Assembly (NCBI GenBank): GCA_965215195.1
Contig: CBDCDC010000002.1
Coordinates: 4,736,001 to 4,800,000, forward strand
Length of the DNA stretch: 64,000 nt
Direction of reading: 5' to 3'
DNA from: Candidatus Latescibacterota bacterium
GTDB taxonomy: Bacteria > Latescibacterota > UBA2968 > UBA8231
The notes beneath the pieces were generated by a model. That model was not told the DNA's origin and did not search any database. It saw only the letters and a list, made by a program, of their open reading frames with translations. Below, piece after piece: positions 31,487 to 56,000 of the stretch; position 1 is the first letter of the stretch; each line of letters begins with the position of its first letter. Made by a program: the position numbers and the translations under genes.

Positions 31487-31544
31487 TTTACGCCCAATAA
31501 AACCATAAACGATCAACGCCGGGCCCCAAAAGTCAGCAATTAGC

Positions 31545-31573
31545 TTGACCTTTTGCTACTTTCTTTTTATTAT
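31545..31573 (+). promoter_or_regulatory. Sigma70-type promoter of the 31.7-43.6 kb gene run
   Basis: TTGACC (31545-31550), 17 nt, TATTAT (31568-31573) in an AT-rich spacer. Confidence 0.7.
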
Positions 31574-31677
31574 GACTCCGATTTTCCTGCAAAAATTGTG
31601 TGTTCACTGTTTTATTCCGCAGCTTCGCTTACCGTTCCACCGAAAAATTATTTGAAAGGAGAAAATAAACCCCCCTT

Positions 31678-31704
31678 TTAGCAACCTTAGCAACCTTAGC
31701 AACC
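31678..31704 (+). repeat. Tandem repeat (TTAGCAACC)x3 in 5' leader
   Basis: Three perfect 9-bp copies, followed by hairpin AACCGCT-AAATA-AGCGGTT (31701-31719). Confidence 0.9.
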
Positions 31705-31743
31705 GCTAAATAAGCGGTTTTCTCACACAGGAAAGGATCTTGG

Positions 31744-32673
31744 GTGATGAGCAGAGCAATGAGTTATAGCTTCTTGGCATGGAGTCTTGTCCTTTTCACT
31801 GTCGCGTCCAGTTCGGCTCACCTGCGGACAGACAGAAACTGGGCCGCTGTTCAGGTGCCTATTGGCGTCGATGGCATAAGAGATGTCCAGATGGACGGCG
31901 ACATAAGCGAATGGGACAACGTACCTTCGGTCTTCTGGGTGACCCATGAGGATCTAATCGAGACCGTCACCGGCACCCAAGGAGACCCCGACCCCTCCAA
32001 CTTGGCCGAGCGCATCATTTTCGGCTGGAGTCCAGTGACCAACATTTTGTATTTCATGGAGGAACGGTTCGACGACCTCTTTTACGGGACCATCGAAAAT
32101 AATTTCGATACGGTTGAGGTAACCTTGGACTTCGACCACAGCGGCGACGCCATTTTCCAGAATGTCCAATCGGCGGATTTGGATCCGGAGAGGTGGGAAG
32201 GGGCCCTATCCCAGAATTACCGCTACACGCTGCACCAAGAAAATCACATGTGGCTCTGGGGAGGAGCTCCATGGGCTGGAGTCGAGCCTTATTCTGGTGC
32301 TAAATGGAGTTTTGAGGGTGATATCAACGGCGGTGCCGGGACCCTGTTCATGGAAATGTGGTTTACTCCCTTTGACGACCTGCCCACTAGCTCTACGGGC
32401 ATAGAAGACGAAGATGTGATCGTCCACACTATGCAGGCAGGCGAAATCATGGGTATTGGTTTTGCCGTTCAGGACGATGACGACGGTGCCGAAGGTTCGT
32501 ACAACGGCTACTGGACCAATAGCGGCGACACGGAAATCTATTTCAAAGCTACCGCTATGGTTGACTATGTCCTGCTCCCCTTTGATGAGAGCATCTGGGT
32601 AGCGGGTGAAGACGTGGGAACTGCTGTCGAGTCGGATAGCTGGGGGAACATCAAGGCGAGTTTTTCCCGCTAA
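31744..32673 (+). CDS. Secreted acidic CBM9/DOMON-like protein with C-terminal AVE..SWG.IK motif
   Basis: Signal peptide, MDGDISEW, GFAVQDDD, tail TAVESDSWGNIKASFSR. Confidence 0.7.
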   Translation: MMSRAMSYSFLAWSLVLFTVASSSAHLRTDRNWAAVQVPIGVDGIRDVQMDGDISEWDNVPSVFWVTHEDLIETVTGTQGDPDPSNLAERIIFGWSPVTNILYFMEERFDDLFYGTIENNFDTVEVTLDFDHSGDAIFQNVQSADLDPERWEGALSQNYRYTLHQENHMWLWGGAPWAGVEPYSGAKWSFEGDINGGAGTLFMEMWFTPFDDLPTSSTGIEDEDVIVHTMQAGEIMGIGFAVQDDDDGAEGSYNGYWTNSGDTEIYFKATAMVDYVLLPFDESIWVAGEDVGTAVESDSWGNIKASFSR

Positions 32674-32703
32674 GGAGAACAAGTAAGAGAACATGAGCAG
32701 TTC

Positions 32704-32733
32704 GGGGGCGAGGTTATCTTCGCCCCCTTTTTT
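32704..32733 (+). terminator. Intrinsic terminator after CBM9-like gene
   Basis: GGGGGCGA-loop-TCGCCCCC followed by TTTTTT. Confidence 0.8.
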
Positions 32734-32751
32734 AATAATTTTGCCAAAGGA

Positions 32752-34707
32752 TTGGGCATGCTTTCACCTAAGTCAATTGGGTTCCTGTTACTCGCGTTGC
32801 TAGGTGTTGGTCTCTGCTCTCAAAATGTCTCCGGCGTGGTCATTTATAGAATTGGCACGCCTTTTTCAATATCAGAAAAAGACAGCCTTGAAGGTCTCGG
32901 CATCGACTTCAGGGAAATCGACTGGTCGGCCTCCCAACTACAGGATGGCCTCGATCTGGACTCTTTGCCGACTGGTTCACTGCAACCTAACTACTTTGAT
33001 GAGGACGAAGACATCGCCGCGACCCTACTGAGCAGGGGTGGCTGGGTACGGGTGCGGCTTTTCGCCAATCAAAATCAACTTATTGGAGAGGTCTTGGTCG
33101 ATGGCGATCCGACTACAGCCCTCATGTGGCCAGCCGTAGCTCCAGAGAGCTTTCAGGTGGGCACGGCTCGGACCCTCAGTGAACAATTGACTTTTGATTT
33201 AGGCGGGCGATTTCTCATCCGGGAAGTGAGATTCCGCCCTCTGGCGGAAAAGCCAGAGCACTTTTTGGAGCGGCTCTCCATTGGCACTCTCGATAGGAGG
33301 TTGGTCAATATTGGCAACAGAATGTCCAATCTCCCGACCGTAGCCGAAGTAAAAGAAAATACCGAACCTGAAGTCAGCGTGATTTTAGACCCGCCGATAT
33401 CGACTCAAACGGTCCAATTACTGATTTTTCGCGACACCCCCAAGGAAATAGGGCTCGCCGATTTTGAACTCTACGGCGGTGGTTTCTTAGCCCGATCCTC
33501 GTATGAGTCCGAAGTAGTCGATCTAGGCAATCCGGCCAGTTGGGGCGAGATTCGCTGGTCGGGCCGGCAAGATACGGACGCCCGAATCGATATCCGCACC
33601 CGGACGGGAACAGACCCACATCCCGATATTTTTTGGCAGTTGCGACCCGAGCAGCGAGACAGCGTACAATTTCGCGATGGCGGTGGCGACTTGACCCTGA
33701 GCGAATACAAGCACCGCTACAGCAAGCTGCTCGATGTCCTCAAGCCGGTAGAACCCCGGGATAGAGTGAGCCCGGATACGGAAAACTGGAGTTTCTGGTC
33801 CAGTCCCTATCTATTTGAAAACTCGGGGACTAGCATCGTTTCCCCTAGTCCGCGCCAATTTTTACAACTCAAAGTAGATTTCTTTTCCACAGTCGAGGAT
33901 GGAGGCAAGATCGATTATGTCGAGTTTAAGGCCTCAGTTCCGCCGGCCGTGCATGGCCTGGTGGGAGAGATTTTCCCGGTGGATACCCAAGTGGGGCAAG
34001 CGACGCATTTCACTTACTTCATCCGGCCGACCATCCGGGCCGGCGACACGGGCTTTGACGGCGTGGAGATTTCCACGCCCTCGGGGGTGACTTCAGTCGA
34101 TTCGCTACGCATAGACGGCATCAACTACAACGACTTTATCTGGGCAAGAACCGCGGATGGCCTAGGTTTTGAGATCGGCTTTCCGCGCAAGCTGGAACCG
34201 ACCGACAGCGGGGCCCTGATCGAGGTGGTGTTCAACGCGCCAGTGCTGCGGGAAGTGGGCACACTGTTTACTGGTAAAGTGTTCAATAGCGCCGAGCCGA
34301 ACGAGGTGCGTCAACGCATCAACCCAGGCAATGCCGCCGACGAGATTGAGAGCGACGGGATTGCAGTGAAAACATCGCTGAGCAGTTCACTGGTATTTGC
34401 ACCGCAGATTGGTCCCAATCCCTTTACGCCCAACGGCGATGCCCTCAACGATGTGGTGCATATTTCCTATAAACTCTTGCGGGTGACATCTCAGATTCCC
34501 GTCTCGGTGGAAATTTTCGATTTGTCCGGCCGGCTAGTTAAGCAAATATACGCCGGGGACATTTCCATCGGAGAGTATTCTCACCCTTGGGATGGGACAG
34601 ACCACTCCAACCGGCTGGTATCCCCGGGACTCTACTTGTATCGAATAGCGGTAGACATCCAATCAGAAGAGGGCATCAAAGGCGGCGTTATCGCCGTGGC
34701 CTATTGA
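32752..34707 (+). CDS. Secreted discoidin-like + FlgD-Ig C-terminal domain protein (paralog 1)
   Basis: Signal peptide, FDLGG, WSFWS..SPSPR, PNPFTPNGD.LND, IFDLSGRLV, WDG, ends IAVAY. Confidence 0.8.
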   Translation: MGMLSPKSIGFLLLALLGVGLCSQNVSGVVIYRIGTPFSISEKDSLEGLGIDFREIDWSASQLQDGLDLDSLPTGSLQPNYFDEDEDIAATLLSRGGWVRVRLFANQNQLIGEVLVDGDPTTALMWPAVAPESFQVGTARTLSEQLTFDLGGRFLIREVRFRPLAEKPEHFLERLSIGTLDRRLVNIGNRMSNLPTVAEVKENTEPEVSVILDPPISTQTVQLLIFRDTPKEIGLADFELYGGGFLARSSYESEVVDLGNPASWGEIRWSGRQDTDARIDIRTRTGTDPHPDIFWQLRPEQRDSVQFRDGGGDLTLSEYKHRYSKLLDVLKPVEPRDRVSPDTENWSFWSSPYLFENSGTSIVSPSPRQFLQLKVDFFSTVEDGGKIDYVEFKASVPPAVHGLVGEIFPVDTQVGQATHFTYFIRPTIRAGDTGFDGVEISTPSGVTSVDSLRIDGINYNDFIWARTADGLGFEIGFPRKLEPTDSGALIEVVFNAPVLREVGTLFTGKVFNSAEPNEVRQRINPGNAADEIESDGIAVKTSLSSSLVFAPQIGPNPFTPNGDALNDVVHISYKLLRVTSQIPVSVEIFDLSGRLVKQIYAGDISIGEYSHPWDGTDHSNRLVSPGLYLYRIAVDIQSEEGIKGGVIAVAY

Positions 34708-34754
34708 TTTTTAATCGCCCCTTAGGGGAGTAAATACGTGGGAGACCCAATGCC

Positions 34755-37394
34755 ATGGCATGGCAGAGAACATTCAAGCTGGTGAGCACTAGCTTGGTCT
34801 GTCTCTTAGGTAGGATGGTGGCTTGGGGGCAAGAGGGCTTTTCTATCCAAGACAGCGCGGCTGTCATCGAGTCTAGGGATCACTGGGCTCGTTGGCAGTC
34901 GGTGGCAAAGACCGTCCAGATCACCGCGGAGGGCGTAAAACCAGCTTTTATACGCAAAAGTACCCAGCTCGAAATAGATGGCGTTGAACAGGTAGTCCCC
35001 GGCATTAACGCGGTCTTGAATGCCTCCGAGTTCGGCGGCGGGATATGGGATGCCGGCTCCAATCGCTTGAGCGCAGACAACCTCATGGACGGCAGGATGG
35101 ACACCTACTGGGAGCCGGATACTTCTACCCCCCTTAGGGATTGGTGGGTGCAAATCGATTTAGGGCGGGCCGTATCAGCCAATAAGATCGTCCTCAAGTT
35201 TGTCGGGGAGGATTTGGGAGACCCCTTTCTCCAATTTAAGGTCCTCACCTCTCAGGGGGAGACGATCATCGGCCCGCTGGTGTACAGGAAACGCTTCTCA
35301 ACGAACAAGCCCATCAAGAATGAACGGGTCTTTGAAGTCGATCTGACCCGCCAGTTGCCCACCAAATGGACACAGGTGCGCGGGGATTTTACCGGCGATG
35401 TGATCCGGTTCGTCTCGGTCGGCGTCACGGACAGCGACTTTGGCAAGGCAAGACCTGTTTCCCAGTCCGCTTACGAGGGCCTCGACCCGGACCAACAGGG
35501 CGATATAGAGTACTTCCGCCGAGAAACCTCGGGAAGGCTGAGATTGTTGGAGGGACGCGAGGATTGGGAGGCCTTGGCCGGCGGAGACAGTCAGGGTCCT
35601 GTCGTCTACTATCGCCGCGAGTTGCCCCGATTGGCGGAAGTGGAAGTCTGGTCAATCGGCGACAATATCGGCATTGGCGTACTGGAGCGGGGTGGCAAGG
35701 TAACGAGTTGGGAAAACAACGGTGCTGAGGGTGTGGTGGTAGACGGAGTAATCTATAGTGTAGAAAAGGCGTTGTACTGGCCTGCTCAAGGGGGGTACAA
35801 TCCCGATAGGCTGCTGCCTTCGGAGCCACCCGATGTCGAGCGTGCCTTAGTGGTGGATCTGGGAGGGGCCTTCTTCTTAGACAATATCCGCGTACTCCAA
35901 GCCAGCAGTAGCCCCCCTGGGCCTTTTCGCGCCTACCGCATTGAAGTCTCGGATGGCTCCACCAACGCCGGCGGAAGTCTGGCCTGGCAAACAGTAGGGT
36001 CGATCGACCACATCAACGGAAATGAATCGTACCACGATTTTAAGTTTCCGCTCACCAAAGTCGAGCATTTTTCTTTTACCTATAAACTCCATGTAGGGGC
36101 CGGACGCCACGGCTTGTCAGAGATTCAGTTTTTCGGCGAGGGATACATGCCCAAGGCGCGGCTCGAATCGGTCTTTGACGGCCCTTCGGCGTTCATAGAA
36201 TTAGGGGCCACTCCCCAAAATTTGGCGTCTATAGAATGGGATGCGGATAGGCCGCCGGGCACGGATATTATTCTTCAGACCCGGACCGGCAATACGGTCA
36301 AAACTACTACGCTCTATTACAAAAAGAACGGTGAGTTGTTTCCGGGCACCGAAGAAGAAGCAGCGGAAGCGCACGCTACGGACAAAAAGTTCTTTGGGGA
36401 TGCCTCTGTTGGACCCGTCGTTACCCAGACCAACCCGGGCAGCGACTGGAGTGGTTGGAGTCAACGCTATTTTAATTCGGGAGACAAAATCACCTCGCCC
36501 AGTCCGCGTAAATTCGTCGCCATCCGAGCGACCTTTCTCACGGAAAATCCCCTCGTGGCGGCTACACTCCGTTGGGTAAAACTCAACTTTGTAACGCCAG
36601 TCGCCAAAACAGTTGTTGGCGAGGTGCTGCCCGCTCAACTCGAAGTGATTGGCGCTGAGCAATCGTTTTCCTATTTCATCCGCACGACTTTCGAGCCAAC
36701 CAACGAGGGCTTTGACGAGATTCTCATTGAAGCTCCCCCCGGCGTCAAAATGAAATTCAAGCAAGCCCATGTGGACCTCACAGGGCAGCCGACTCAAACC
36801 TATACCGCCCAAAGCGAGGGTTTTGAGGTCGTGTCTGATGATTCCGATTCGCTTTGGGTGCGTCTGCCTGTTCCCATCAAGGGGACCGACGGGGCTGCGT
36901 TGATCGAGCTTCAGTTCAAGGCGACCATATTTGATTTTACCACATTCTTCAATGGCTCTATCGGCCATTCTTCCATTCCCAATTCATGGCAAAGAGTGGA
37001 CCCGGGCGATGCAAACGAGATCACGGATAGCGAAAAAACCGTGATCTTGGCCCTTGAAAGAGGTGCAGTACTGGGGGATATCGAAGTCAAAAACAAAATC
37101 TTCACCCCGAATGGCGACGGCATCAATGATGATATGGCTGTGAGTCTTTCACTCATGCGGGTGGAGTCATCAACGCCGTTACAGATGCAAATATACGATC
37201 TAAGTGGGCGTCTCGTTCACCAACTGCGCGATGAGGACATAACCACGGGACGGCATTCCGCGGTCTGGACCGGAGTCGATAACTCCGGAGCTTTGGTGGC
37301 CCCTGGCATATATGTGCTGAGGATCAACATTAAGGTCGATTCAAAATCGAGTAGAAATACCTCGGACTACCGCTTAGTACATGTCTCCTATTGA
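34755..37394 (+). CDS. Secreted double discoidin-like + FlgD-Ig protein (paralog 2)
   Basis: LMDGRMDTYW, IDLGR, VDLGG, WSGWS..SPSPR, FTPNGDGIND, ends VHVSY. Confidence 0.8.
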   Translation: MAWQRTFKLVSTSLVCLLGRMVAWGQEGFSIQDSAAVIESRDHWARWQSVAKTVQITAEGVKPAFIRKSTQLEIDGVEQVVPGINAVLNASEFGGGIWDAGSNRLSADNLMDGRMDTYWEPDTSTPLRDWWVQIDLGRAVSANKIVLKFVGEDLGDPFLQFKVLTSQGETIIGPLVYRKRFSTNKPIKNERVFEVDLTRQLPTKWTQVRGDFTGDVIRFVSVGVTDSDFGKARPVSQSAYEGLDPDQQGDIEYFRRETSGRLRLLEGREDWEALAGGDSQGPVVYYRRELPRLAEVEVWSIGDNIGIGVLERGGKVTSWENNGAEGVVVDGVIYSVEKALYWPAQGGYNPDRLLPSEPPDVERALVVDLGGAFFLDNIRVLQASSSPPGPFRAYRIEVSDGSTNAGGSLAWQTVGSIDHINGNESYHDFKFPLTKVEHFSFTYKLHVGAGRHGLSEIQFFGEGYMPKARLESVFDGPSAFIELGATPQNLASIEWDADRPPGTDIILQTRTGNTVKTTTLYYKKNGELFPGTEEEAAEAHATDKKFFGDASVGPVVTQTNPGSDWSGWSQRYFNSGDKITSPSPRKFVAIRATFLTENPLVAATLRWVKLNFVTPVAKTVVGEVLPAQLEVIGAEQSFSYFIRTTFEPTNEGFDEILIEAPPGVKMKFKQAHVDLTGQPTQTYTAQSEGFEVVSDDSDSLWVRLPVPIKGTDGAALIELQFKATIFDFTTFFNGSIGHSSIPNSWQRVDPGDANEITDSEKTVILALERGAVLGDIEVKNKIFTPNGDGINDDMAVSLSLMRVESSTPLQMQIYDLSGRLVHQLRDEDITTGRHSAVWTGVDNSGALVAPGIYVLRINIKVDSKSSRNTSDYRLVHVSY

Positions 37395-37419
37395 TCTTCT
37401 GCGATTCGCGAGGAACAGG

Positions 37420-39144
37420 TTGAACAAACCCCCGTTGCTCAAGACCGCGTTATTGGCGTTTTCTTGTCTATTGCAGGGACTTGCGCCGGCCCAAGGCTAT
37501 GGGGAGCCGATTGTCATTGGAGGCGGTCTAGGTACTCTAGCGTGGGATGGCCATTATTCCGAGATATCGGTTATCGATTTTGACGCCAATCCCGGCCAAA
37601 TTCAGCCGGCTCAGACAGGTCCCGAAGACAATATCGCCCTGAAGATATTTGAAAGAGGAGGGGCCGTAACATCGCCCAACGCGAGAATAGTACTCGAAAT
37701 ATCCCAGAGTCTTTTGAATGAACAATTGGCGCATATGGTGAGCGGCGATACGACTAGGGCCTTTGAAGTAAAGGGGGGTTCCCCTACAGGCGTCATATTT
37801 AGAATAGATTTGGGCGAGCGCTTGGGGGTCAATCGGATCAAATTTTTCCCTCGGAAGGGGTTTGAAGAGTTTCTCCTGAAAGGCTATGAACTGCTGCTGA
37901 ACGACGGCAGCGAGGAGCAGAAAACCCTAGCCGGGACGCCGGACTTCAAGGTTTTTAGAACCGAGGAACGCAACCTCGAGCCAACTGTTGACCTAGACGT
38001 TCCCCTGCAGTTTGTTCGTTTCATAGAGGTGAAGCAACTGGTGCGCGGAGAGTGGGAGATCGACGAATTTCAAGTCTTTGGTGCGGGTTTTGCCTCTACG
38101 GCATCATATACCTCAAGAGTATTTGCTCAGGAACAGCCCGCTATCTTTGGCGACATAACATGGGCTAGGGGGAGCATCGGCGAACCAACGAAAACGGATG
38201 CCATCCTATTGACTCGGAGTGGCAACACACCAGATCCCAGCGATTCGCTGTCTTGGAGCGCTTGGTCCTCCCCCTATCCTGCCGGAGTGCATACCGCTAT
38301 TGAATCACCAGCTCCGCGTCGTTTTTTTCAATTCCATTTACTCCTTAAGACCAGCGATATTCTAGCGGCGGCGACCGTTGACTCCCTCGCCTTTGAGGTG
38401 TCTCCTGCCCTAGCCGATTCGCTGGTGGGCGAGATATGGCCCCAAAATGCTATGATCGGGCAGAATACCTCCTTTACCTATGCCGTGAGAACCGTCAATA
38501 GCCGCGGCTTCAACCGGCTCGAACTAAAGACTATGGCACCGGTAGATGTAGTGCGCTCCGTGCAAATAGACGGGACCGATGTCGAATGGGAAAAGACGGA
38601 TACAGAGGACGGGGCCCAAATTAGCTTCCCCCGGATTGTGGGAAACCGCACCTTGCGAGTGGTCTTTGAGAACGTGGCTTTGCAGTACAATACTTTTTTT
38701 GCCGGCAGAGTCTCCGATAGCCAACAACCGGACAATCTGTCCCAAGTAGTCACCGAGGGAGATGCAGTCTCTGATTTCGCGGCGCAGGGGGATGACCTTT
38801 CGGTCGAGATCGCGGTGGGCAAAGACCTCATTCATTCCATGAAAGTGACTCCCGTTCCTTTTACTCCCAACGGCGATGGCCTAAATGATGAAGTTTTGGT
38901 GACCTACGACATCGTCAACCTGACAGGTGGTGCTTTGGTTGCGGTGGCGATATACGATCTTGCTGGAAGACGTATAAAGGAGATCTATTCAGGGTTGGCT
39001 CCCAGTAGGAGATACCAAAGGGCTTGGGATGGGACGGCTGAGAGCGGTGCCAAGGTGCTACCCGGAATCTATTTGATGCGAGTGGAAATTGATGCAGATT
39101 CAGGATTCGAGAGTAAGACGAAAATTGTCCCAATAGTCTATTGA
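37420..39144 (+). CDS. Secreted discoidin-like + FlgD-Ig protein (paralog 3)
   Basis: TTG start after GAGGA; IDLGE, WSAWS..SPAPR, PFTPNGDGLND, ends VPIVY. Confidence 0.8.
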   Translation: MNKPPLLKTALLAFSCLLQGLAPAQGYGEPIVIGGGLGTLAWDGHYSEISVIDFDANPGQIQPAQTGPEDNIALKIFERGGAVTSPNARIVLEISQSLLNEQLAHMVSGDTTRAFEVKGGSPTGVIFRIDLGERLGVNRIKFFPRKGFEEFLLKGYELLLNDGSEEQKTLAGTPDFKVFRTEERNLEPTVDLDVPLQFVRFIEVKQLVRGEWEIDEFQVFGAGFASTASYTSRVFAQEQPAIFGDITWARGSIGEPTKTDAILLTRSGNTPDPSDSLSWSAWSSPYPAGVHTAIESPAPRRFFQFHLLLKTSDILAAATVDSLAFEVSPALADSLVGEIWPQNAMIGQNTSFTYAVRTVNSRGFNRLELKTMAPVDVVRSVQIDGTDVEWEKTDTEDGAQISFPRIVGNRTLRVVFENVALQYNTFFAGRVSDSQQPDNLSQVVTEGDAVSDFAAQGDDLSVEIAVGKDLIHSMKVTPVPFTPNGDGLNDEVLVTYDIVNLTGGALVAVAIYDLAGRRIKEIYSGLAPSRRYQRAWDGTAESGAKVLPGIYLMRVEIDADSGFESKTKIVPIVY

Positions 39145-39183
39145 TTATTCCCATTTTTATCTGAAAGCTAGGGTGGAACTATC

Positions 39184-41895
39184 ATGCTGACCTGCCATAT
39201 TTGCAGCAATGTAACGCGCGGTATTAGTCTAGCTACTATAGTTTGCTCCTTACTCTCGTCCACGTTAGCTTTCGACGCCGACGCACAAGCCCAAGATGTC
39301 GATCCGATGCGTATAAAAGGTGTGCGCCGAGGGGCGGAACTCACCTTTGAACCAACTGGATCCGGTGTGCTGTTTGGTGCCTTGGACCCGGCGGTCAAGA
39401 AGTGGTACGTACCGCAAGAACTTTTCCTAGAATACCGCTGGAAACAGTGGGAATACACCAACTACGCTAGGGATCACTACGACCGCTACGTGGATATCAA
39501 TTTAGCTGGGGATTATTTCTACGATATTTACGGTTCCTATATCACTAGGGGATGGTTGCTTTACGACTGGTCCCAGACGCAGCCACAGCAAGGGGGCAGC
39601 AATTTATTCAAGACCGAGAGATTCCAAAACTTTTTCAACAATTTGGTCATTGCCTCCGATCAGAAGGGGCAGCACAACTTGGCCATAACCATAGGCAATG
39701 AGATCCGTTCGACCCTTACCCCAATGACTTTCTCAAAACCAGCCTTGGACGGAATCCAGGTGGACTACCAAGCCGACAAATACCAAGTCACGACAATCCT
39801 TTCTCGGATCTCTGCCCCCGGCGGATCCGGTCCTCGCAACCCTGCGGTCAACCAAACGACTAGCCTGACAACGCTGATGGGTGGGCGGGCCGTGGCCCAA
39901 GTGGGCGATTTCATCAGCATCGGGGCCAACTATGTAAGTGCCCACAATTCCTTTCAACTCTTAGATGCCTTTGAAGGAACCCCCAGAAGTGGTTCGATCA
40001 CTTCTAGTCAAAACGCTGAAAATATCACCCAGCTTTTCGTCCGTCTGACCGACGATTCGCCCGAAGATAAAGAAGGCGGCGCTACCCTCTTCGCTTGGGA
40101 TATGATCATAGAGGCCGACGTCGAAATCATTGATGAAGAGGGGGAACGGGCGTTTAGTCGAGAGGTTGTCCGGGCCAGCGAGGCCGGTCTCAAGCCCTCG
40201 CCTCAGGGCGGCTTTCAGCGCTCGGGTTTCTGGGAAGCCAGCGGTTCTGAGCAGATCGAATTAGTATACGACTTTTCCGAGGGAACCTACACCGGCCCCG
40301 ACCCCTCGGAGATAAGAAAGGTGACTTTTGAACTAGTGGTTGCCAACGACTACAGAATCGAGCTGTCTTCGAACCGCCAGACTAACCGGCAAAACAGCAA
40401 CGTGTTTCTGCTAGCGGCCAGAGCCCAAGAAAACGTCAAAGATGGCTCCAATCTCAGAGTCCTCAAGATCCCGTACGGTTTGCCGACCGCCAGCGAAATT
40501 TTCGGTTTCACTCTGGAGGCGAACAATATTGCGGGTCTTGATTTTTACGGCGAATTCGACCGCAGTAGGAGTTACCGAAAATACCCCAACAGGCAGCATA
40601 CAAAACACCTGTCGGCTTTTGACCAAGGCGATGGCTGGATGTTGAATCTGTCGAGAACCGTCCAGCCATGGTTCTTTTTTGGCGAGGCTTACAGTATGGA
40701 CCACAATTATAATACAAGCGCTATCTTGGCCCGGGGCGAGGTCAACATAGATTACGAGGACCGGACGAGATTCTACTACGAACTCGTCGACGACAACGAC
40801 GATCAGGATCGCTACCCCGATTGGCAGAGGATAAACGAAAGCATCGACTTGAATGTATTCCCCGGCTTGGATGAAAACGTCGATTTTATCTCCGATTTTA
40901 ATCAGAACGACAGCGAAGATCTGCCCAACTTAGTGCCTGACTACAACGAGCCTTTTCTGCGCTATTCTACGGACCGACCCGAGTATCTGTTCGGCATAGA
41001 TATGAACAATAATATATGGGTAGACCGGTTCGAAAACGATGATGAAGCAGATTTTCCCTATGGTCGAGATTTAAGCGGGTACAATTTTTATGCGGGCATC
41101 AACATTACTCCAGAGATGAGGTTGACGATCGGCCGCACCGACGAAAGTCTCATTGCCGGTGATGGAGAAAATACCACCCATTATTTGCTTTTTACCCTAG
41201 AAAAGGACTATCCCGGCCTAGGAAGGGTGAGGATTTTTGAGAATTTTAGACTGGCCAAGGACAATATAGAGAATGACCTCCGCCAGTGGGACGAATTCGA
41301 GCGGCGAAACGTCCCTACCATTGACCCTCTGGCGGCCCGGAATACGTGGATAAATTCGTCCTATATAAGCTTCCGCTATACCAAGCTGAAGAATCTAAAT
41401 CTGATCAACAAGCTGAAATACGACCGCTGGCATCAAAGGGAAAGACAGCCCGACTTGCGACGCGACTTCGTCTTTGTGGGCCTGATCAATAAAGTGGACT
41501 ATGTCCTCAAATTCATTAATCTCGATATCCAGCCCAAAATTAAAAACGAATTGAGGATAGAGTCTCCAGCACTTAAAGCAAATCCCAAACGCAGGGAAGA
41601 CACCCTGATTTTTACTTTACTGGCCCGGTGGCCATTATTTAATAACTCCACGATGCAGGCAGGCGTGGAGTATACCGTTTTCCAGCAGCTCAGAGATGCG
41701 GATACAGCGGTCAAGGAAGGGCTGCTAGACGACTTCAGTGAAATTGTGGGGGCGGCCCAGTTCTCCAATAATTCAAACTACTTGGGCTACAGTTTGACGA
41801 CCCTGATGGGACTCAGGCTGACTAGAAGAGCCATCGACAACGAAACCGAAACGGGCAGAATGGCTTTTGCCACGGTATTTGCCGGCTTGGAGTAA
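39184..41895 (+). CDS. Large exported protein, putative novel outer-membrane beta-barrel with Asp-rich Ca-binding loops
   Basis: Signal peptide, many amphipathic aromatic strands, DDNDDQD / DENVDFISD / DMNNN motifs, terminal FATVFAGLE. Confidence 0.6.
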   Translation: MLTCHICSNVTRGISLATIVCSLLSSTLAFDADAQAQDVDPMRIKGVRRGAELTFEPTGSGVLFGALDPAVKKWYVPQELFLEYRWKQWEYTNYARDHYDRYVDINLAGDYFYDIYGSYITRGWLLYDWSQTQPQQGGSNLFKTERFQNFFNNLVIASDQKGQHNLAITIGNEIRSTLTPMTFSKPALDGIQVDYQADKYQVTTILSRISAPGGSGPRNPAVNQTTSLTTLMGGRAVAQVGDFISIGANYVSAHNSFQLLDAFEGTPRSGSITSSQNAENITQLFVRLTDDSPEDKEGGATLFAWDMIIEADVEIIDEEGERAFSREVVRASEAGLKPSPQGGFQRSGFWEASGSEQIELVYDFSEGTYTGPDPSEIRKVTFELVVANDYRIELSSNRQTNRQNSNVFLLAARAQENVKDGSNLRVLKIPYGLPTASEIFGFTLEANNIAGLDFYGEFDRSRSYRKYPNRQHTKHLSAFDQGDGWMLNLSRTVQPWFFFGEAYSMDHNYNTSAILARGEVNIDYEDRTRFYYELVDDNDDQDRYPDWQRINESIDLNVFPGLDENVDFISDFNQNDSEDLPNLVPDYNEPFLRYSTDRPEYLFGIDMNNNIWVDRFENDDEADFPYGRDLSGYNFYAGINITPEMRLTIGRTDESLIAGDGENTTHYLLFTLEKDYPGLGRVRIFENFRLAKDNIENDLRQWDEFERRNVPTIDPLAARNTWINSSYISFRYTKLKNLNLINKLKYDRWHQRERQPDLRRDFVFVGLINKVDYVLKFINLDIQPKIKNELRIESPALKANPKRREDTLIFTLLARWPLFNNSTMQAGVEYTVFQQLRDADTAVKEGLLDDFSEIVGAAQFSNNSNYLGYSLTTLMGLRLTRRAIDNETETGRMAFATVFAGLE

Positions 41896-41934
41896 TCTAC
41901 CCGTGCGCAGGAATGCAGAGGAGATATGAGCTAA

Positions 41935-43596
41935 ATGCCAAGGGAAATGACTGTATTTTGGCTTTTACCACTCGTGCTTTTTACCGTGCTCATGGGGTGC
42001 ACAGTGGAAATGGGAGACCGGGTCGTTGCTCAGATAGGTGATGAGGGGATAACGGTTGGCCAGTTGCGGAAATTTATCGCTGGCCTCCCCGAAGATGCCA
42101 AGGCCGAGCACACTAGGGTAGAAGAAGCGAGGAATCATTTGAACACCATGATCAACATCGAACTACTGATCATGGAGGCGAAGGCGGCCGATCTCGACGA
42201 AAGCCCTGAATTTCTCGCCCGGCTGGCAAACGCCCGGCGAGAAAAGTTAATCAGCATTTTCCAAGATAGAGCGCTGGAAGTAGAGGAGGAAGTGGAGGAG
42301 AGCGAAGTGCGGGAATACGCTGAACGCATGGGGCTCACTAGAGCGGTCAGGTTGGCCGATATAATGCTCCCCAGCCGAGAAAATGCCTTGGCCGCCCTCC
42401 GCGAACTCAAAAATGGGGTGCCTTTTGGGCAAGTCGCCAAGAAATGGTCCATAAACAAAAAAACCGCGGCCCAAGGTGGGGACTTGGGCCGCTATACCAC
42501 CCGAGAAAACATGATCGCGCCCCTTCAGGACAAGCTGTTTTCCCTCGCCTTGGGCGAAATCACCGAGCCCATAAAAATCGGTGGGCGCTATTCGATTTTC
42601 ACGGCCATCGCCGATTCTACCATCGAACTCAGTCCCCAGAGGAAACTGGCGATCGAAATGGGACTAAAAAAGGAGAAAAAGCAGCGGGCGCAATCAATTT
42701 TAGTCGCTGAACTCAAGGAAAAATACCACCTCGAATTGGATCGGGAGGGCCTCGCGCTCATTGCCGAAAAAGTGCGTGGCGGTACATCTTTTGCCCCGGA
42801 GACTGAGCGCAATATAGTGCTCTATCGGTACGACGGCGGAGAAATAACTGCTCAAGACTTGACAGAAGCTGGTCGCGATGCCCTAGCCCAACTTAGCGAC
42901 TCCAGCCAAGTGATCGCTTTTGCCGAGCGCCATGTCGTACCCAATGCAATGCTCTTGGAAGCGGCCCTGCGCACTGGCATAGACGAGGAAGCAGAGACGG
43001 TTGAGTGGTTGGAAAATCAGGCAACGCAACTTTTGATAAGGGCCCTCAGGGCGCAAGTCCTAAGAGCTAAAGTGACCATCGCTGAAAACGAGTTGCGCCA
43101 GTTTTACGAGGTCCATGCGGCAAGGTATCTGCACCCCGAGCAAATCGAAGTACAGGAGATTTTGGTAGAGACGGAGGCCGAGGCCCTGAGGTTGATGGAG
43201 CAGATCCAAAAGGGGAGCCCATTAGGCGATTTGGCCAAGAAGTACTCTATCCGGTCGCTAGCGGATCGGGATGAAGAGGGCCGATTCCACTTCCACCTTT
43301 TTGAAAAGGCCTTTTTTGGTGGTTTTGTAGAAGTCGCCGAAAAAGCCGAGATAGGAGCACTCACCGGTCCGGCCAAGGTCAATGAAGGTTATTCTATATT
43401 TAAGGTGCTTTCTAGGGAACGCAAGCGGGAGACTTTTGCGGAGGCCGAGTGGAGAGTCCGCTCCCAACTTAAAAGAGAAAAAAACAGAAAGGCCTTCAAT
43501 CAATTTATCGAAGAAGTGCGGAATAAATACGCAGCGAAAGTGGTTATTCGGGAGGATAACCTCAACGCCGCTTTCGGGGGGAATGAGGGCCCATAG
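41935..43596 (+). CDS. Lipoprotein peptidyl-prolyl isomerase with two parvulin domains (SurA/PrsA-like)
   Basis: LMGC lipobox, F.QVAKKWS..GGDLG, LAKKYS, GP.K...GYSIFKV. Confidence 0.85.
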   Translation: MPREMTVFWLLPLVLFTVLMGCTVEMGDRVVAQIGDEGITVGQLRKFIAGLPEDAKAEHTRVEEARNHLNTMINIELLIMEAKAADLDESPEFLARLANARREKLISIFQDRALEVEEEVEESEVREYAERMGLTRAVRLADIMLPSRENALAALRELKNGVPFGQVAKKWSINKKTAAQGGDLGRYTTRENMIAPLQDKLFSLALGEITEPIKIGGRYSIFTAIADSTIELSPQRKLAIEMGLKKEKKQRAQSILVAELKEKYHLELDREGLALIAEKVRGGTSFAPETERNIVLYRYDGGEITAQDLTEAGRDALAQLSDSSQVIAFAERHVVPNAMLLEAALRTGIDEEAETVEWLENQATQLLIRALRAQVLRAKVTIAENELRQFYEVHAARYLHPEQIEVQEILVETEAEALRLMEQIQKGSPLGDLAKKYSIRSLADRDEEGRFHFHLFEKAFFGGFVEVAEKAEIGALTGPAKVNEGYSIFKVLSRERKRETFAEAEWRVRSQLKREKNRKAFNQFIEEVRNKYAAKVVIREDNLNAAFGGNEGP

Positions 43597-43599
43597 GTT

Positions 43600-45291: not shown

Positions 45292-45435
45292 ACACTCATC
45301 GCTGTAGAGGTGAACTAAGTAGATAATGGCCGCAATTATAGAAATTACCCTTTGCTGCGGCAAGGCCGGGGATCTTTGCGGCTTTTTTGCTAAAAAGTCA
45401 TATACGCTCGCCATTCATGGGTCCAGAGGTGCGGA

Positions 45436-46305: not shown

Positions 46306-48294
46306 TTGAAAAAGAGAGTTCCGCTCCAATACCGCACCTGGCTAAAAAGACGCCAGCCGACCTACGGGGACGTTAAGGGTATCTCGGCTCGCGCCATCTT
46401 ATTGGGGGCGGTCCTCGCCTTTCTGCTAAATCTCCTCGACGCCTATGCTACGACCCTCATCCGAGGTTCGTATCTAACCCTGAACTTCAGCACCCCGGCG
46501 GCCCTGTTCTTCTTCTTTTTTCTCGTGCTTGCCAGTGCCTTGGTCGCTTGTCTCCGCCGTCCCCTAGCTTTGGACCAAGCCGAGTTGGTAACCATCTATA
46601 TCATGCTAGCGGTGGCCTGCTGTGTTCCCGGTATGGGTTTCACCCAATTTATCATACCCTGCTTACTGGGCTCCACCTACTATGCTACGCCCGAGAACAA
46701 CTGGGACTTTCTCTACAACCAGTACATCCCTAGCTGGATGATTCCCCGCGGCGAAAACGCGGCGCGTTTTTTCTTTGAAGGTCTGCCCGAGGGCGAGGCC
46801 ATCCCTTGGGGCATCTGGGTCGTACCGCTGAGTTTCTGGTATGGGTTTTTTTTAGTGCTCAGCTTCGCCATGATCTGCACCATGGTCATCGTACGTCAGC
46901 AGTGGATGGACCGGGAAAAGCTAGTCTATCCACTGGTTCAAGTGCCCATGGAGATGATCGGCCGCGAAAAGGAAGAAACGATCGGCCGGTCGTTTTTCAC
47001 CAACAAAGTCATGTGGGTCGGTTTTGCCGTATCATTCATTTTGCTCAGTGTCAACGGCCTGCACTCCTACTTTCCGAACTTTCCGCAGCTCACTAAAACC
47101 TTCACCTTGCCCTTGTTCCGCGATACGGTCGGCCTGAGTTTCTGGTTTAGTCCGCCTTGGACCGGTTTTTTCTATTTCGTCAACCTCGACATCACGGCTT
47201 CAATCTGGATATTCTACATCCTCACCACTGTCCAGCGGGGCATCTTCAACATCGTCGGCTTGCAGAGCACGCAGCGGATCGATTTCTACTCTATCGAACC
47301 TTTCCTCGCCCATCAGGGTATGGGCTCTATGATAGTCTTTGTGCTGGTGGGGTTGTGGGTGGGACGCGGCCATTTACAAAATGTATACCGCAAAGCCTTC
47401 CATGGCGCCGAAGAGGTCGACGACAGCGGCGAGATGCTATCCTACCGGCAGGCCCTTTTCGGCCTGCTAGCGGCGCTCGCCCTAGTGGTGGTCGGCCTAT
47501 GTATGATGGGACTAACTTTTCCCACGGCACTATTATTCATCTTTGGTGCCATGATGCTGTTTATAGGGCTAACTCGGGTAGTGGCTGAAGGAGGGATTCC
47601 GGCCATGCGACCCCCTATCATGACTTCGAGCTTTGTCATTTCGGGGGCCGGCGCCTCGGCCTTGGGTGCTTCGGGTCTGGTGGCCCTAGGCTTTTCCTAC
47701 GGCTGGCATTCCGAAGTGCGCTCCTTTGTCATGGCGTCTGTAGCCAACGGGCTGAAGATGGGGGAGATTATCACCGGTTCCAAGCGCCGACTATTCTGGG
47801 CCGTGGTCATTGCCATTGTGGTCAGTCTGGTCGGCTCGTCGTATATGACCTTAGTGCTGGCCTACAAATACGGGGGCATCAATCTCAATCCGCTCTTTTT
47901 CGTGGGGCAGGCCCCCACCTTCGGTCCTCGGGATATGGCGCCGCGCATCGCCGCAGACCTGCCCGGCCCCAGGCTGGACGCTTGGCTGTTCATGGGCATT
48001 GGTGGGGGGGTGATGGCCCTACTGATGTGGGCGCGGCACCAGTTCGTCTGGTGGCCACTCAATCCCCTCGGCTATACCATCAGCGCCAACTGGAAGACGG
48101 GACATATCTTTGGCAGCGCCTTTCTCGCTTGGTTCCTCAAACTGTTAATTCTGCGCTACGGCGGTCCCAAGCTGTACCGGAATTTGCGGCCGTTTTTTCT
48201 CGGCCTGATCTTGGGCGAGATCGTGGCGGCGGGCGGATGGCTGGTGCTGGATTATATAACCGGACACATGGGGAGCTTTCTCACTCAGGTCTAA
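46306..48294 (+). CDS. Polytopic inner-membrane protein, DUF6785/DUF6784-like (putative transporter)
   Basis: Many TM helices; RQQW.DREKL.YPL, TRVVAEGG, WWPLNPLG, RPFFLGLILGE motifs. Confidence 0.75.
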   Translation: MKKRVPLQYRTWLKRRQPTYGDVKGISARAILLGAVLAFLLNLLDAYATTLIRGSYLTLNFSTPAALFFFFFLVLASALVACLRRPLALDQAELVTIYIMLAVACCVPGMGFTQFIIPCLLGSTYYATPENNWDFLYNQYIPSWMIPRGENAARFFFEGLPEGEAIPWGIWVVPLSFWYGFFLVLSFAMICTMVIVRQQWMDREKLVYPLVQVPMEMIGREKEETIGRSFFTNKVMWVGFAVSFILLSVNGLHSYFPNFPQLTKTFTLPLFRDTVGLSFWFSPPWTGFFYFVNLDITASIWIFYILTTVQRGIFNIVGLQSTQRIDFYSIEPFLAHQGMGSMIVFVLVGLWVGRGHLQNVYRKAFHGAEEVDDSGEMLSYRQALFGLLAALALVVVGLCMMGLTFPTALLFIFGAMMLFIGLTRVVAEGGIPAMRPPIMTSSFVISGAGASALGASGLVALGFSYGWHSEVRSFVMASVANGLKMGEIITGSKRRLFWAVVIAIVVSLVGSSYMTLVLAYKYGGINLNPLFFVGQAPTFGPRDMAPRIAADLPGPRLDAWLFMGIGGGVMALLMWARHQFVWWPLNPLGYTISANWKTGHIFGSAFLAWFLKLLILRYGGPKLYRNLRPFFLGLILGEIVAAGGWLVLDYITGHMGSFLTQV

Positions 48295-55992: not shown

Positions 55993-56000
55993 GCCAAGTC

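What the first reader, a model, noticed from the sequence alone, without database searches (positions are those of the whole stretch)
31545..43596. Candidate undescribed cell-surface capture or secretion system: CBM9-like protein, three FlgD-Ig paralogs, novel barrel and dedicated chaperone
Seen: six co-directional genes behind one clear promoter (TTGACC-17-TATTAT), all with signal peptides or a lipobox. They encode an acidic CBM9-like protein, three discoidin/FlgD-Ig paralogs, a 903-aa barrel-like protein and a two-parvulin lipoprotein. No SusC/SusD, TonB-dependent receptor, secretin or pilin motif was recognised. Known: polysaccharide utilisation loci couple surface binding proteins to an OM transporter, and SurA-type parvulins fold OM proteins. 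Inference: this is a PUL-analogous uptake complex or a self-contained export and assembly module of a new type, in which the paralogs form a heteromeric cap on the barrel.
Basis: partly seen in the sequence, partly recalled or inferred. Interest (0 to 1): 0.85.

Follow-up and report, generated by a model that had tools for sequence, protein, structure and literature searches.

The report
Undescribed outer-membrane barrel and lectin module
These six genes are one copy of a conserved, many-copies-per-genome outer-membrane gene set of Latescibacterota and Gemmatimonadota: a giant unannotated barrel, three sugar-binding-type surface proteins, an abundant CBM9-fold protein and a folding helper, matching no described system.

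Summary
Six intact co-directional ORFs (31744-43596) encode:
- an acidic CBM9-fold protein (g1);
- three true paralogs with CHU_C/FlgD-Ig C-terminal domains (g2-g4);
- a 903-aa protein that models as a roughly 30-strand beta-barrel with no Pfam or NCBIfam family (g5);
- a tandem-parvulin lipoprotein (g6).

Of 60 related loci with full flanks, 47 hold all parts and 36 hold exactly 1 g1: 3 paralogs: 1 barrel: 1 PPIase, in at least six gene orders. Up to six copies were found per genome. The paralogs form three ancient clades, and the g4 clade sits directly upstream of the barrel gene in 20 of 21 cases.

New points:
- A conserved terminator hairpin follows g1 in 48 of 65 homologs, against 0-3% for the other genes.
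- g1 carries a portable C-terminal tag (..WGRIK..F) that is also found on unrelated PD40 proteins inside one module.
- The barrel has a very conserved, acidic, EF-hand-like extracellular insert.

Best reading (0.42): a surface lectin complex exported and anchored by its own barrel, as T9SS type B cargo is by PorP/SprF. PUL-like import is the main rival. Physical assembly, ligand and transport direction remain untested. I found nothing in print on this module.

The parts
31545..31573 (+). sigma-70-like promoter match TTGACC-17-TATTAT
   Evidence: 10 of 12 positions. The hexamers are kept in 4 of 7 aligned orthologous loci. The number of such matches in the region is not above chance.
31744..32673 (+). 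g1: acidic secreted CBM9-fold protein with an invariant His at +1 of the AxA cleavage site and a C-terminal tag TAVE..SWG.IK..F (residues ~292-308)
32704..32733 (+). intrinsic-terminator hairpin (10-bp GC stem, UUAU loop, U6) between g1 and g2
   Evidence: -21.5 kcal/mol, z -4.72; 94% column identity in 9 orthologs; 48 of 65 g1 homologs have such a hairpin.
32752..34707 (+). g2: paralog of the g2 clade, with a CHU_C/FlgD_ig C-terminal domain (residues 555-642)
34755..37394 (+). g3: paralog of the g3 clade, with an extra N-terminal F5/8 type C (discoidin) domain (residues 103-169) and a CHU_C/FlgD_ig C-terminal domain (777-865)
37381..39144 (+). g4: paralog of the barrel-adjacent clade, with a CHU_C/FlgD_ig C-terminal domain (494-573); overlaps g3 by 14 nt
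   Evidence: (20 of 21 clade members lie directly upstream of a barrel gene).
39184..41895 (+). g5: roughly 30-strand outer-membrane beta-barrel of an uncurated family; acidic EF-hand-like insert at residues 506-629, inferred to be extracellular; conserved but unmodelled N-terminal region 29-106
41935..43596 (+). g6: lipoprotein (LMGC) made of two PrsA/PEB4/HP0175-like chaperone-plus-parvulin units
46306..48294 (+). candidate associated gene: DUF6785+DUF6784 polytopic membrane protein (at least 12 hydrophobic segments)
   Evidence: (a homolog lies within 10 kb of the barrel in 32 of 60 full-flank loci). The association is inferred, not shown.

Best explanation
The six genes are one copy of a conserved, multi-copy outer-membrane module of Latescibacterota and Gemmatimonadota.

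Shown:
- g5 is a roughly 30-strand beta-barrel of a family with no curated model. It is the most conserved part of the module.
- g2, g3 and g4 belong to three anciently separated paralog clades. All end in a CHU_C/FlgD-Ig domain of the T9SS type B kind.
- The g4-clade gene sits directly upstream of the barrel gene.
- g1 has a CBM9 fold. It is followed by its own conserved terminator hairpin and ends in a short portable tag.
- g6 is a tandem-parvulin lipoprotein.

Inferred mechanism:
- After Sec export, g6 keeps the beta-rich clients folding-competent in the periplasm.
- The barrel acts as the dedicated export and anchoring partner of the three lectin-like proteins. It takes their C-terminal domains as PorP/SprF barrels take type B cargo.
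- g1 is made in excess and docks through its tag.
- The Ca-binding-type acidic insert of the barrel forms the outer docking or plug surface.
- The assembled complex binds glycans at the cell surface. The different copies in one genome have different specificities.

Whether bound material is also imported through the barrel is open.
For: Co-occurrence. One search found 567 relatives and kept the best 80 loci. The 20 loci shorter than 22 kb were left out of the counts. Of the 60 with full flanks, 55 have g1, 55 have at least 3 paralogs, 55 have g6, 47 have all three, and 36 have exactly 1:3:1:1. At least six different gene orders occur.

Copy number. Up to 6 loci were found per assembly among the kept 80.

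Three paralog clades have SH-aLRT support of 100, 95 and 90. In the g4 clade, 20 of 21 members lie immediately upstream of a barrel gene (64 rows from the window plus 20 hand-picked representative loci).

CHU_C and FlgD_ig were found in 15 of 15 paralogs tested across five module types.

Known parallel. A porP/sprF-like barrel gene commonly lies directly downstream of type B CTD genes (PMC12618676, passages). Type B cargo binds PorP-like proteins for surface anchorage (PMC9143113, abstract).

The barrel model has pLDDT 79. Its Foldseek hits are large translocon or porin barrels (SlpA, MtrB, LptD, FimD, SprA).

Conservation pattern between module types: barrel 43-55% identical, paralogs 27-43%, g1 25-37%, g6 24-33%.

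Hairpin after g1: 48 of 65 homologs, against 2/102 (g2), 1/61 (g3), 0/50 (g4), 3/106 (g5) and 0/63 (g6).

Tag. It is present on 66 of 67 g1 homologs. It also occurs on two PD40 proteins inserted in a module, which match g1 only in the 17-residue tail.

g6 matches PrsA, PEB4 and SurA-type foldases.
Against: - No physical interaction has been shown.
- g5 is not a PorP/SprF family member: it has no Pfam or NCBIfam hit at all. At 903 aa it is, from recall, about three times their size.
- The CTDs fall below the NCBIfam TIGR04131 cut-off (27.6, 22.7 and 20.1 bits against 35).
- Whether these genomes have a T9SS core could not be checked. None is in the window or in the loci (one search found no SprA-sized gene).
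- Carbohydrate binding is inferred from folds only. The discoidin match is weak outside g3.
- The multi-copy pattern, the DUF6785/6784 membrane protein neighbour (32/60) and the ABC or sugar-acid neighbours (11/60) fit import as well.
- Many of the 80 loci are orthologous copies from about 40 related assemblies, so the counts are not independent events.
Confidence: 0.42

Rival explanations
1. PUL-like import machine. The lectin-like proteins and g1 capture a glycan or other polymer at the surface. The barrel is a TonB-independent conduit into the periplasm. An inner-membrane protein (DUF6785/6784 or an ABC system) takes the material further.
For: - Several diverged copies occur per genome, as with PULs.
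- The binding parts diverge faster than the barrel.
- The folds are CBM9 and discoidin.
- A DUF6785/6784 polytopic membrane protein lies within 10 kb in 32 of 60 full-flank loci, covering three module types.
- ABC sugar-type binding protein and permeases, Amidohydro_2, GFO/IDH/MocA and four enolase-superfamily genes lie beside some modules.
- A published Latescibacteria reconstruction assumed only unspecific porins for outer-membrane uptake (PMC4454575, passages).
Against: - No TonB box, plug or SusC/SusD family was found.
- About 30 strands is translocon-sized rather than transporter-sized (the comparison is from recall).
- ABC or catabolic neighbours occur in only 11 of 60 full-flank loci, mostly one module type.
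- No glycoside hydrolase lies in the window module.
- The function of DUF6785/6784 is unknown. It could equally be a membrane glycosyltransferase-like enzyme, and no paper mentions it.
- Import does not explain the type B-like CTDs or the g4-barrel adjacency.
Confidence: 0.27
2. Fibre or coat assembly with chaperone-usher logic. g1 is the abundant major subunit, joined head to tail through its C-terminal tag. g2-g4 are minor or tip adhesins, g5 is the assembly pore and g6 is the periplasmic chaperone.
For: - The terminator hairpin right after g1 occurs in all module types. From recall, this is the arrangement that sets major-to-minor subunit ratios in fim and pap operons.
- The C-terminal tail is conserved but unmodelled (pLDDT<50 for residues 289-309).
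- The mature N-terminal strand is conserved.
- Usher barrels FimD and PapC are among the Foldseek hits (E 3e-6 to 4e-4).
Against: - The g1 model is a complete CBM9 sandwich with no obvious missing strand.
- The usher hits have TM of about 0.2 and are no better than other barrels.
- No usher, PapD-like or pilin family was found.
- The same tag sits on PD40 propeller proteins. That fits a docking or sorting tag better than a polymerisation strand.
- No g1 self-interaction was tested.
Confidence: 0.1
3. General envelope protein. g5 is a SlpA-like giant porin or outer-membrane scaffold, and the neighbours are merely co-regulated surface proteins without a specific complex.
For: - The top Foldseek hits are Deinococcus SlpA barrels (8ae1, 7zgx, 8agd; E 4e-8 to 3e-7).
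- Nine of 42 distant g5 relatives give below-threshold hits to PF21620 SlpA_C (best 30.2 bits against a cut-off of 35), always on the same profile region.
Against: - TM to SlpA is only 0.17-0.20.
- The window g5 itself has no SlpA_C hit, and the profile search of PDB sequences finds no SlpA.
- No SLH domain or coiled coil was detected.
- Six or more diverged copies, each with its own fixed 1:3:1:1 gene set, is not what a housekeeping scaffold looks like.
Confidence: 0.07

Closest known systems
T9SS type B cargo with cognate PorP/SprF barrel (F. johnsoniae SprB-SprF, Fjoh_3952-3951; P. gingivalis PG1035-PorP-PorE)
   Same: - The cargo ends in a CHU_C/type B-like domain.
- A beta-barrel gene lies immediately downstream of a cargo gene.
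- There are many cognate pairs per genome.
- The cargo are adhesin-like.
- TPR-containing partners are often nearby (33 of 60 loci; PorE has a TPR domain per the abstract listing of PMC12773672).
Sources: PMC12618676 passages and PMC9143113 abstract.
   Different: - The barrel has no PorP/SprF family match and is 903 aa with about 30 strands.
- There are three cargo clades per barrel, not one.
- The module has extra fixed parts: the CBM9-fold g1 with its own tag, and a tandem parvulin.
- CTD scores are under the TIGR04131 cut-off.
- The phyla are outside Bacteroidota, and presence of a T9SS core is unverified.
SusC/SusD polysaccharide utilisation loci of Bacteroidota
   Same: The logic is similar: surface carbohydrate-binding proteins are encoded with an outer-membrane barrel, in many diverged copies per genome.
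   Different: - There is no TonB-dependent receptor, plug or SusD family.
- No hydrolases or regulator lie in the module.
- The barrel is much larger.
- The binding proteins are not lipoproteins by sequence reading.
SlpA barrel of Deinococcus radiodurans (PDB 8ae1, 7zgx; Pfam PF21620)
   Same: It is the best Foldseek match. It is also the only Pfam family touched, below threshold, by distant g5 relatives. Both are very large barrels.
   Different: TM is 0.17-0.20. There is no SLH or stalk region, no above-threshold sequence match, and a different gene context.
Family 9 carbohydrate-binding modules (T. maritima Xyn10A CBM9, 1i82; Caldicellulosiruptor CBM9, 7nwn/7nwo) and DOMON-like haem domains (EbdC 2ivf_C, NxrC 7b04)
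   Same: g1 shares the fold (target TM 0.70-0.73 for CBM9, 0.33-0.52 for the haem domains).
   Different: - g1 is a stand-alone secreted protein, not a module of an enzyme.
- It has no PF06452 match.
- It has about 100 extra residues.
- It has an invariant N-terminal His and a C-terminal tag.
PrsA / PEB4 / HP0175 / SurA parvulin foldases
   Same: g6 has two Rotamase domains with flanking chaperone regions that match these proteins, and a lipobox as in PrsA.
   Different: g6 is a tandem duplication of the unit, it is encoded inside a dedicated module, and it is the fastest-diverging part of that module.

Membership tests
SusC/SusD PUL | SusC-like TonB-dependent transporter (plug plus 22-strand barrel) | tested here: not met
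   No Plug, TonB_dep_Rec or SusC model was hit by any of the six proteins. g5 has no Pfam hit at E<=10.
SusC/SusD PUL | SusD-like lipoprotein next to the transporter | tested here: not met
   No SusD family was hit.
T9SS type B cargo / PorP-SprF pair | C-terminal type B sorting domain (PF13585 CHU_C / TIGR04131) | tested here: inconclusive
   Pfam CHU_C scores 33.6, 35.7 and 27.5 bits against a cut-off of 27. TIGR04131 scores 27.6, 22.7 and 20.1 bits against a cut-off of 35. FlgD_ig overlaps the same residues.
T9SS type B cargo / PorP-SprF pair | Cognate PorP/SprF-family barrel encoded directly downstream | tested here: not met
   A barrel is directly downstream of the g4 clade (20 of 21), but it has no PorP/SprF Pfam or NCBIfam match.
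T9SS type B cargo / PorP-SprF pair | T9SS core (SprA/Sov, PorK/L/M/N, PorU/V) in the same genome | not testable with these tools
   None is in the 64-kb window. The FGE-like protein at 45436-46230 hits GldK only far below cut-off (84 bits against 350).
CBM9 | CBM9 beta-sandwich fold | tested here: met
   Foldseek hits 7nwn, 7nwo and 1i82 at E 3e-9 to 2e-8 with target TM 0.70-0.73, using a model with pLDDT 81.
CBM9 | Sequence family PF06452 and sugar-stacking residues | tested here: not met
   No Pfam hit at E<=10. The ligand residues could not be mapped because model coordinates are not readable here.
SlpA-type barrel (PF21620) | Above-threshold match to SlpA_C plus an N-terminal SLH/stalk | tested here: not met
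   The window g5 has no hit. Nine of 42 distant relatives hit below cut-off. No SLH domain was found. Foldseek TM is 0.17-0.20.
Chaperone-usher pilus | Usher (PF00577), PapD-like chaperone, pilin subunits | tested here: not met
   None was hit. FimD and PapC appear only as generic barrel matches with TM of about 0.2.
Parvulin foldase (PrsA/SurA type) | PpiC-type rotamase domain with flanking chaperone region; periplasmic location | tested here: met
   PF00639 scores 65.7 bits in two stretches, and PF13145 scores 61.4 bits. PDB matches are PrsA, PEB4 (3rfw), HP0175 and SurA. The lipobox LMGC was read.
Histidine-brace copper proteins (LPMO, CopC, PmoB) | His as first residue of the mature protein plus a second His; copper bound | tested here: inconclusive
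   His directly after the AxA site is invariant in 32 of 32 aligned g1 homologs, and a second invariant His sits in DxDHSGG. The fold is CBM9, not LPMO-like. Neither the proximity of the two His residues nor metal binding was testable.

The most novel reading that the evidence does not exclude
The module is a self-contained outer-membrane export and assembly system that does not use the T9SS. In this reading g5 is its own translocon, and there are two kinds of C-terminal address: the CHU_C-like domain on the three lectin-like clades, and the short ..VE..SWGRIK..F tag on g1 and on occasional PD40 passengers. g6 is a dedicated periplasmic foldase. The system is duplicated six or more times per genome to display or feed different glycan-binding sets. 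In the boldest form, g1 is a copper (histidine-brace-like) protein on a CBM9 scaffold that acts on the bound polymer.
Probability: 0.3. Interest if true: 0.9.

Novelty: new variant of a known kind. Interest (0 to 1): 0.72.

Why it matters
Latescibacterota and Gemmatimonadota are widespread, mostly uncultured phyla, and how their outer membrane meets polymers is essentially unknown. A published reconstruction simply assumed unspecific porins (PMC4454575, passages).

This module is large and common. The barrel alone has 721 clusters at 50% identity. It is fixed in composition, present in many copies per genome, and entirely annotated as 'hypothetical protein'.

The work defines:
- a new giant barrel family;
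- a new short C-terminal tag;
- a conserved expression device (the hairpin after g1);
- a clear three-clade plus barrel architecture.

Each can be tested directly in cultured Gemmatimonas relatives.

If the barrel proves to be an independent translocon or a TonB-independent import pore, it would add a new class of outer-membrane machine. It would also extend the type B CTD-barrel principle beyond Bacteroidota.

Tried and rejected
- Complex prediction of g5 (residues 36-903, alignment A2) with the g1 tail (279-309, alignment A3) scored 0.00 in two runs, so there is no verdict. This is no evidence either way.
- The search for related loci with the diverse alignment A1 failed for lack of a conserved stretch. 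It was rerun with the closer alignment A2.
- A Pfam scan of all of A1 exceeded the size limit. Only 42 of its 64 members, the distant ones, were scanned.
- PDB sequence search with the g5 profile gave only two chance-level hits. For g2 and g3 it found only FlgD.
- Rfam on 31300-44000 found nothing at E<=1, so there is no known riboswitch in the roughly 170-nt leader.
- The Atlas returned only unnamed or 'hypothetical' clusters for g5 and g4. The nearest named cluster for g5 was DUF6029 at 0.88, a lead only.
- A search for fused forms of g1 among proteins of 542-2000 aa found none, which is weak evidence.
- Exopolysaccharide export (AlgE, PgaA or BcsC type) was rejected. No glycosyltransferase or polymerase lies in the module or flanks.
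- Chance clustering was rejected.
- Literature searches found nothing on this module.
- Not checked: the metagenome contigs and viral contigs collections (closed), any AlphaFold-DB-type library, the T9SS core genes of the related chromosomes, and the model coordinates (pore, plug, His-His distance).
Full report
WHAT IS THERE

The region holds six intact + strand ORFs:
- g1, 31744-32673
- g2, 32752-34707
- g3, 34755-37394
- g4, 37381-39144
- g5, 39184-41895
- g6, 41935-43596

Gaps between genes are short (78, 47, -14, 39 and 39 nt). The promoter-like site TTGACC-17-TATTAT is at 31545-31573. It is the best + strand match in the region. Such matches are no more frequent there than in shuffles, however (12 found against 11.7 +/- 3.2). 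Its hexamers are recognisable in 4 of 7 aligned orthologous loci. No Rfam family matches the roughly 170-nt leader or anything else in 31300-44000.

THE PARTS

g1 (309 aa)
- It has no Pfam or NCBIfam hit, even at E<=10.
- It is very acidic: pI 4.05, D+E 17.2%, K+R 3.9%.
- With a 32-sequence alignment it models at pLDDT 81 and pTM 0.81.
- Foldseek finds family 9 carbohydrate-binding modules first: 7nwn, 7nwo and 1i82, at E 3e-9 to 2e-8 and target TM 0.70-0.73. DOMON-like haem domains follow (EbdC 2ivf_C, NxrC 7b04).

g2, g3 and g4
- They are true paralogs, 24-29% identical over 588-606 aligned residues (alignment).
- All three end in a domain that passes the Pfam cut-offs of both CHU_C ('Type IX secretion signal domain') and FlgD_ig. 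It stays under the NCBIfam TIGR04131 cut-off.
- It contains the FTPNGDG(L/I)ND motif.
- The discoidin (F5/8 type C) match is solid only in the extra N-terminal domain of g3 (E 9e-11). In the domain shared by all three it appears only below threshold in relatives.

g5 (903 aa)
- It has no curated family.
- With a 64-sequence alignment it models as a large beta-barrel, pLDDT 79 and pTM 0.74.
- I count about 30 membrane-length strands in the DSSP string. I could not read the coordinates.
- Foldseek returns only big barrels at low TM (0.14-0.25): SlpA, MtrB, LptD, FimD/PapC and SprA.
- The one weak sequence lead agrees with the top structural hit. Nine of 42 distant relatives touch PF21620 SlpA_C below cut-off, always on the same profile region.

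g6
- It is a lipoprotein (LMGC, read).
- It has two parvulin domains and matches PrsA, PEB4, HP0175 and SurA.

THE BARREL'S INSERT

Residues 506-629 of g5 are 38.7% D/E/N. They hold three 12-residue stretches that fit my recalled EF-hand loop pattern, at 563, 571 and 606. This segment carries most of the nearly invariant residues of the family.

I inferred its side of the membrane as follows. I counted hairpins back from the C-terminal strand. I assumed, as is usual for outer-membrane proteins, periplasmic termini, short periplasmic turns and long outer loops. On that count the insert falls on the extracellular side. This is an inference, not an observation.

Residues 29-106 are conserved among closer relatives but modelled at pLDDT<50.

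IS THE GENE SET CONSERVED?

Size of the family
- The g5 family is large: 1104 hits among 7999 scored candidates.
- It has 721 representatives at 50% identity.
- Every named member is called 'hypothetical protein'.

The loci examined
- A scan of one genome per species found 567 relatives and kept the best 80 loci.
- These come from about 40 assemblies. By record label, 63 are Latescibacterota, 15 Gemmatimonadota, 1 Handelsmanbacteria and 1 unlabelled.
- The labels are the records' own. L007, for example, is labelled Gemmatimonadetes yet is 94% identical to Latescibacterota loci.

Counts
- I compared the window's proteins with all ORFs of the loci by BLASTP.
- I counted only the 60 loci with full 10-kb flanks. 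The 20 shorter ones were left out.
- 55 have g1, 55 have at least three paralogs, and 55 have g6.
- 47 have all three, and 36 have exactly 1 g1 : 3 paralogs : 1 barrel : 1 PPIase.
- 19 have two barrels in tandem.

Gene order and copy number
- The parts occur in at least six different orders. The association has therefore survived repeated rearrangement.
- Single assemblies hold up to six loci among the kept 80. That is a lower bound.
- Many loci are orthologs from related genomes, so the counts are not independent events. The variety of gene orders is the stronger argument.

PARALOG CLADES

I built a tree of 64 paralogs from the window plus 20 hand-picked representative loci covering all gene orders.
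- It gives three clades with SH-aLRT support of 100 (g3 type), 95 (g4 type) and 90 (g2 type).
- Most modules have one member of each clade. Two gene orders replace the g3 type with a second g2 type.
- In the g4 clade, 20 of 21 members lie immediately upstream of a barrel gene. The exception is a fragment.
- CHU_C/FlgD_ig is present in 15 of 15 paralogs scanned from five module types.
- Between module types the barrel is the most conserved part (43-55% identity to the window protein). The paralogs are at 27-43%, g1 at 25-37% and g6 at 24-33%.

1. A terminator hairpin after g1
- A canonical intrinsic-terminator hairpin lies between g1 and g2 at 32704-32727, followed by U6. Its energy is -21.5 kcal/mol with z -4.72.
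- The intergenic stretch is 94% identical in nine orthologous loci. That is more than the leader, at 68% column identity.
- Across all module types a GC hairpin with a T-rich tail lies within 110 nt downstream of 48 of 65 g1 homologs, with unrelated stem sequences.
- For the other genes the figures are 2/102 (g2), 1/61 (g3), 0/50 (g4), 3/106 (g5) and 0/63 (g6).
- This holds even where g1 sits in the middle of the gene row.
- The simplest reading is that g1 is made in excess over the rest.

2. A portable C-terminal tag on g1
- g1 ends in a conserved tail, TAVE.D(S/T)WGRIK..F, that is unmodelled (pLDDT<50).
- A W[GA].[IVLM]K motif in the last 20 residues is found in 66 of 67 g1 homologs.
- It is found in only 4 of 2794 unlabelled ORFs and in none of the other labelled module proteins.
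- Two of those four are PD40 beta-propeller proteins inserted between g1 and g4 in locus L046. A profile comparison matches the 303-aa one to g1 only in the 17-residue tail (probability 85%, E 5.7e-6).
- The tail is therefore a portable tag used inside these modules. No NCBIfam sorting-signal model matches it.

Also in g1
- A His is invariant (32 of 32 sequences) directly after the AxA signal-peptidase site.
- A second invariant His sits in DxDHSGG, and several acidic residues are also invariant.
- From recall, a mature N-terminal His is the hallmark of histidine-brace copper sites (LPMO, CopC, PmoB). I could not test proximity or metal binding.

SURROUNDINGS

In the window the module is flanked by:
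- TPR and ASPIC/UnbV FG-GAP genes upstream;
- another ASPIC gene on the opposite strand;
- an FGE-sulfatase-fold gene;
- a DUF6785+DUF6784 polytopic membrane protein.

Homologs of that membrane protein lie within 10 kb in 32 of 60 full-flank loci, covering three gene orders. Its function is unknown, and no paper in the library mentions it.

I scanned 37 unlabelled neighbour ORFs from 10 representative loci with Pfam. Some modules turned out to have an ABC binding protein with two permeases, Amidohydro_2, GFO/IDH/MocA, or four enolase-superfamily genes beside them. Counted over all loci, such neighbours occur in only 11 of 60, mostly in one gene order. No T9SS core gene is in the window. No SprA-sized gene is in the loci.

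HOW IT MOST LIKELY WORKS

Shown: the composition, the folds, the conservation, the copy number, the g4-barrel adjacency, the hairpin and the tag.

Inferred: everything about contacts and direction of transport.

The closest described design is the T9SS type B cargo with its cognate PorP/SprF barrel.
- Such barrel genes commonly lie directly downstream of the cargo gene, and the pairs are specific (PMC12618676, passages).
- The cargo is anchored at the surface by the barrel (PMC9143113, abstract).

The module repeats that logic, with a CHU_C-type C-terminal domain and a barrel gene directly downstream. It differs in having a barrel of another, much larger family, three cargo clades, an abundant CBM9-fold protein with its own tag, and a dedicated foldase.

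I therefore favour, at 0.42, a surface lectin complex whose barrel exports and/or anchors the three CTD proteins and docks g1.

The main rival, at 0.27, is that the barrel is a TonB-independent import pore of a PUL-like system. This is favoured by the many diverged copies and by the membrane-protein and ABC neighbours. It is weakened by the barrel size, the CTDs and the rarity of catabolic neighbours.

A fibre or coat assembled by chaperone-usher logic (0.10) would explain the excess of g1 and its tail. It does not explain the same tag on PD40 proteins.

A SlpA-like housekeeping barrel (0.07) does not fit the fixed gene set and the copy number.

The readings are not exclusive. The complex could both display lectins and pass their ligand inward.

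MEMBERSHIP

- It is not a SusC/SusD locus. No TonB-dependent receptor or SusD was found.
- It is not a PorP/SprF pair by family.
- It is not a chaperone-usher system.
- It is not a demonstrable SlpA homolog.
- g1 is CBM9 by fold only.
- g6 is a bona fide parvulin foldase.

NOVELTY

I found no description of this module. I read only passages of PMC4454575 and PMC12618676, and the outline and abstract of PMC9143113. All other papers were seen as listings only. Supplements were not consulted.

I class it as a new variant of a known kind, the CTD cargo plus cognate barrel. There is a 0.3 chance that it is an autonomous machine of a new class.

LIMITS

- One complex prediction gave no verdict.
- The T9SS status of these genomes is unchecked.
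- Signal peptides were read by eye.
- The model coordinates could not be inspected.

Noticed in passing
window 31744-32673 (g1), residues 26 and 132: A His directly after the AxA signal-peptidase site is invariant in 32 of 32 aligned homologs. A second invariant His sits in DxDHSGG, with invariant D110, D129, E204, D244, D246 and D274. From recall, a mature N-terminal His suggests a histidine-brace-type metal site, here on a CBM9 scaffold.
   Followed up: partly
L046:5560-5919 and L046:5965-6876: Two PD40 beta-propeller proteins inside a module carry the same C-terminal tail as g1 (..SVEAQSWGRIKSLLS) but are otherwise unrelated to it. The tail is therefore a portable tag.
   Followed up: yes
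window 32704-32733 and downstream of g1 homologs in L001-L076: A terminator-like hairpin follows g1 in 48 of 65 homologs of all gene orders, with different stem sequences. It follows at most 3% of the other module genes.
   Followed up: yes
window 31680-31706: The 9-mer AGCAACCTT/AGCAACCGC is repeated three times in tandem in the g1 leader. The orthologous loci have one or two copies. Its meaning is unknown.
   Followed up: partly
window 45436-46230 and 46306-48294: An FGE-sulfatase-fold protein gives below-cut-off NCBIfam hits to PvdO, GldK and EgtB. It is followed by a DUF6785+DUF6784 polytopic membrane protein. Homologs of that protein accompany 32 of 60 modules, and no literature was found on it.
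   Followed up: partly
window 25846-28143, 29756-31486, 43600-45414(-) and 27977-29740: Three ASPIC/UnbV FG-GAP (CRTAC1-like) genes and a long TPR gene flank the module. TPR genes lie near 33 of 60 related modules and ASPIC genes near 29 of 60, and TPR genes sometimes lie inside the gene row.
   Followed up: partly
L052-L059, L053, L060-L076 (for example L052:9950-15615): Nineteen of 60 full-flank loci carry two diverged barrel genes in tandem. The second is 38-41% identical to the window g5.
   Followed up: no
window 52662-57717 (- strand): An Mla-like set (ABC ATPase, MlaE with a STAS domain, MlaD) encloses a 605-aa protein with a weak DUF3078 match.
   Followed up: no
window 58894-63183: A 1429-aa fusion joins fatty-acyl reductase (NAD_binding_4/Sterile), AMP-binding and acyltransferase domains.
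   Followed up: no
window 22866-24689(-) and 48320-49768(-): ORFs of 607 aa and 482 aa have no Pfam or NCBIfam match at all.
   Followed up: no
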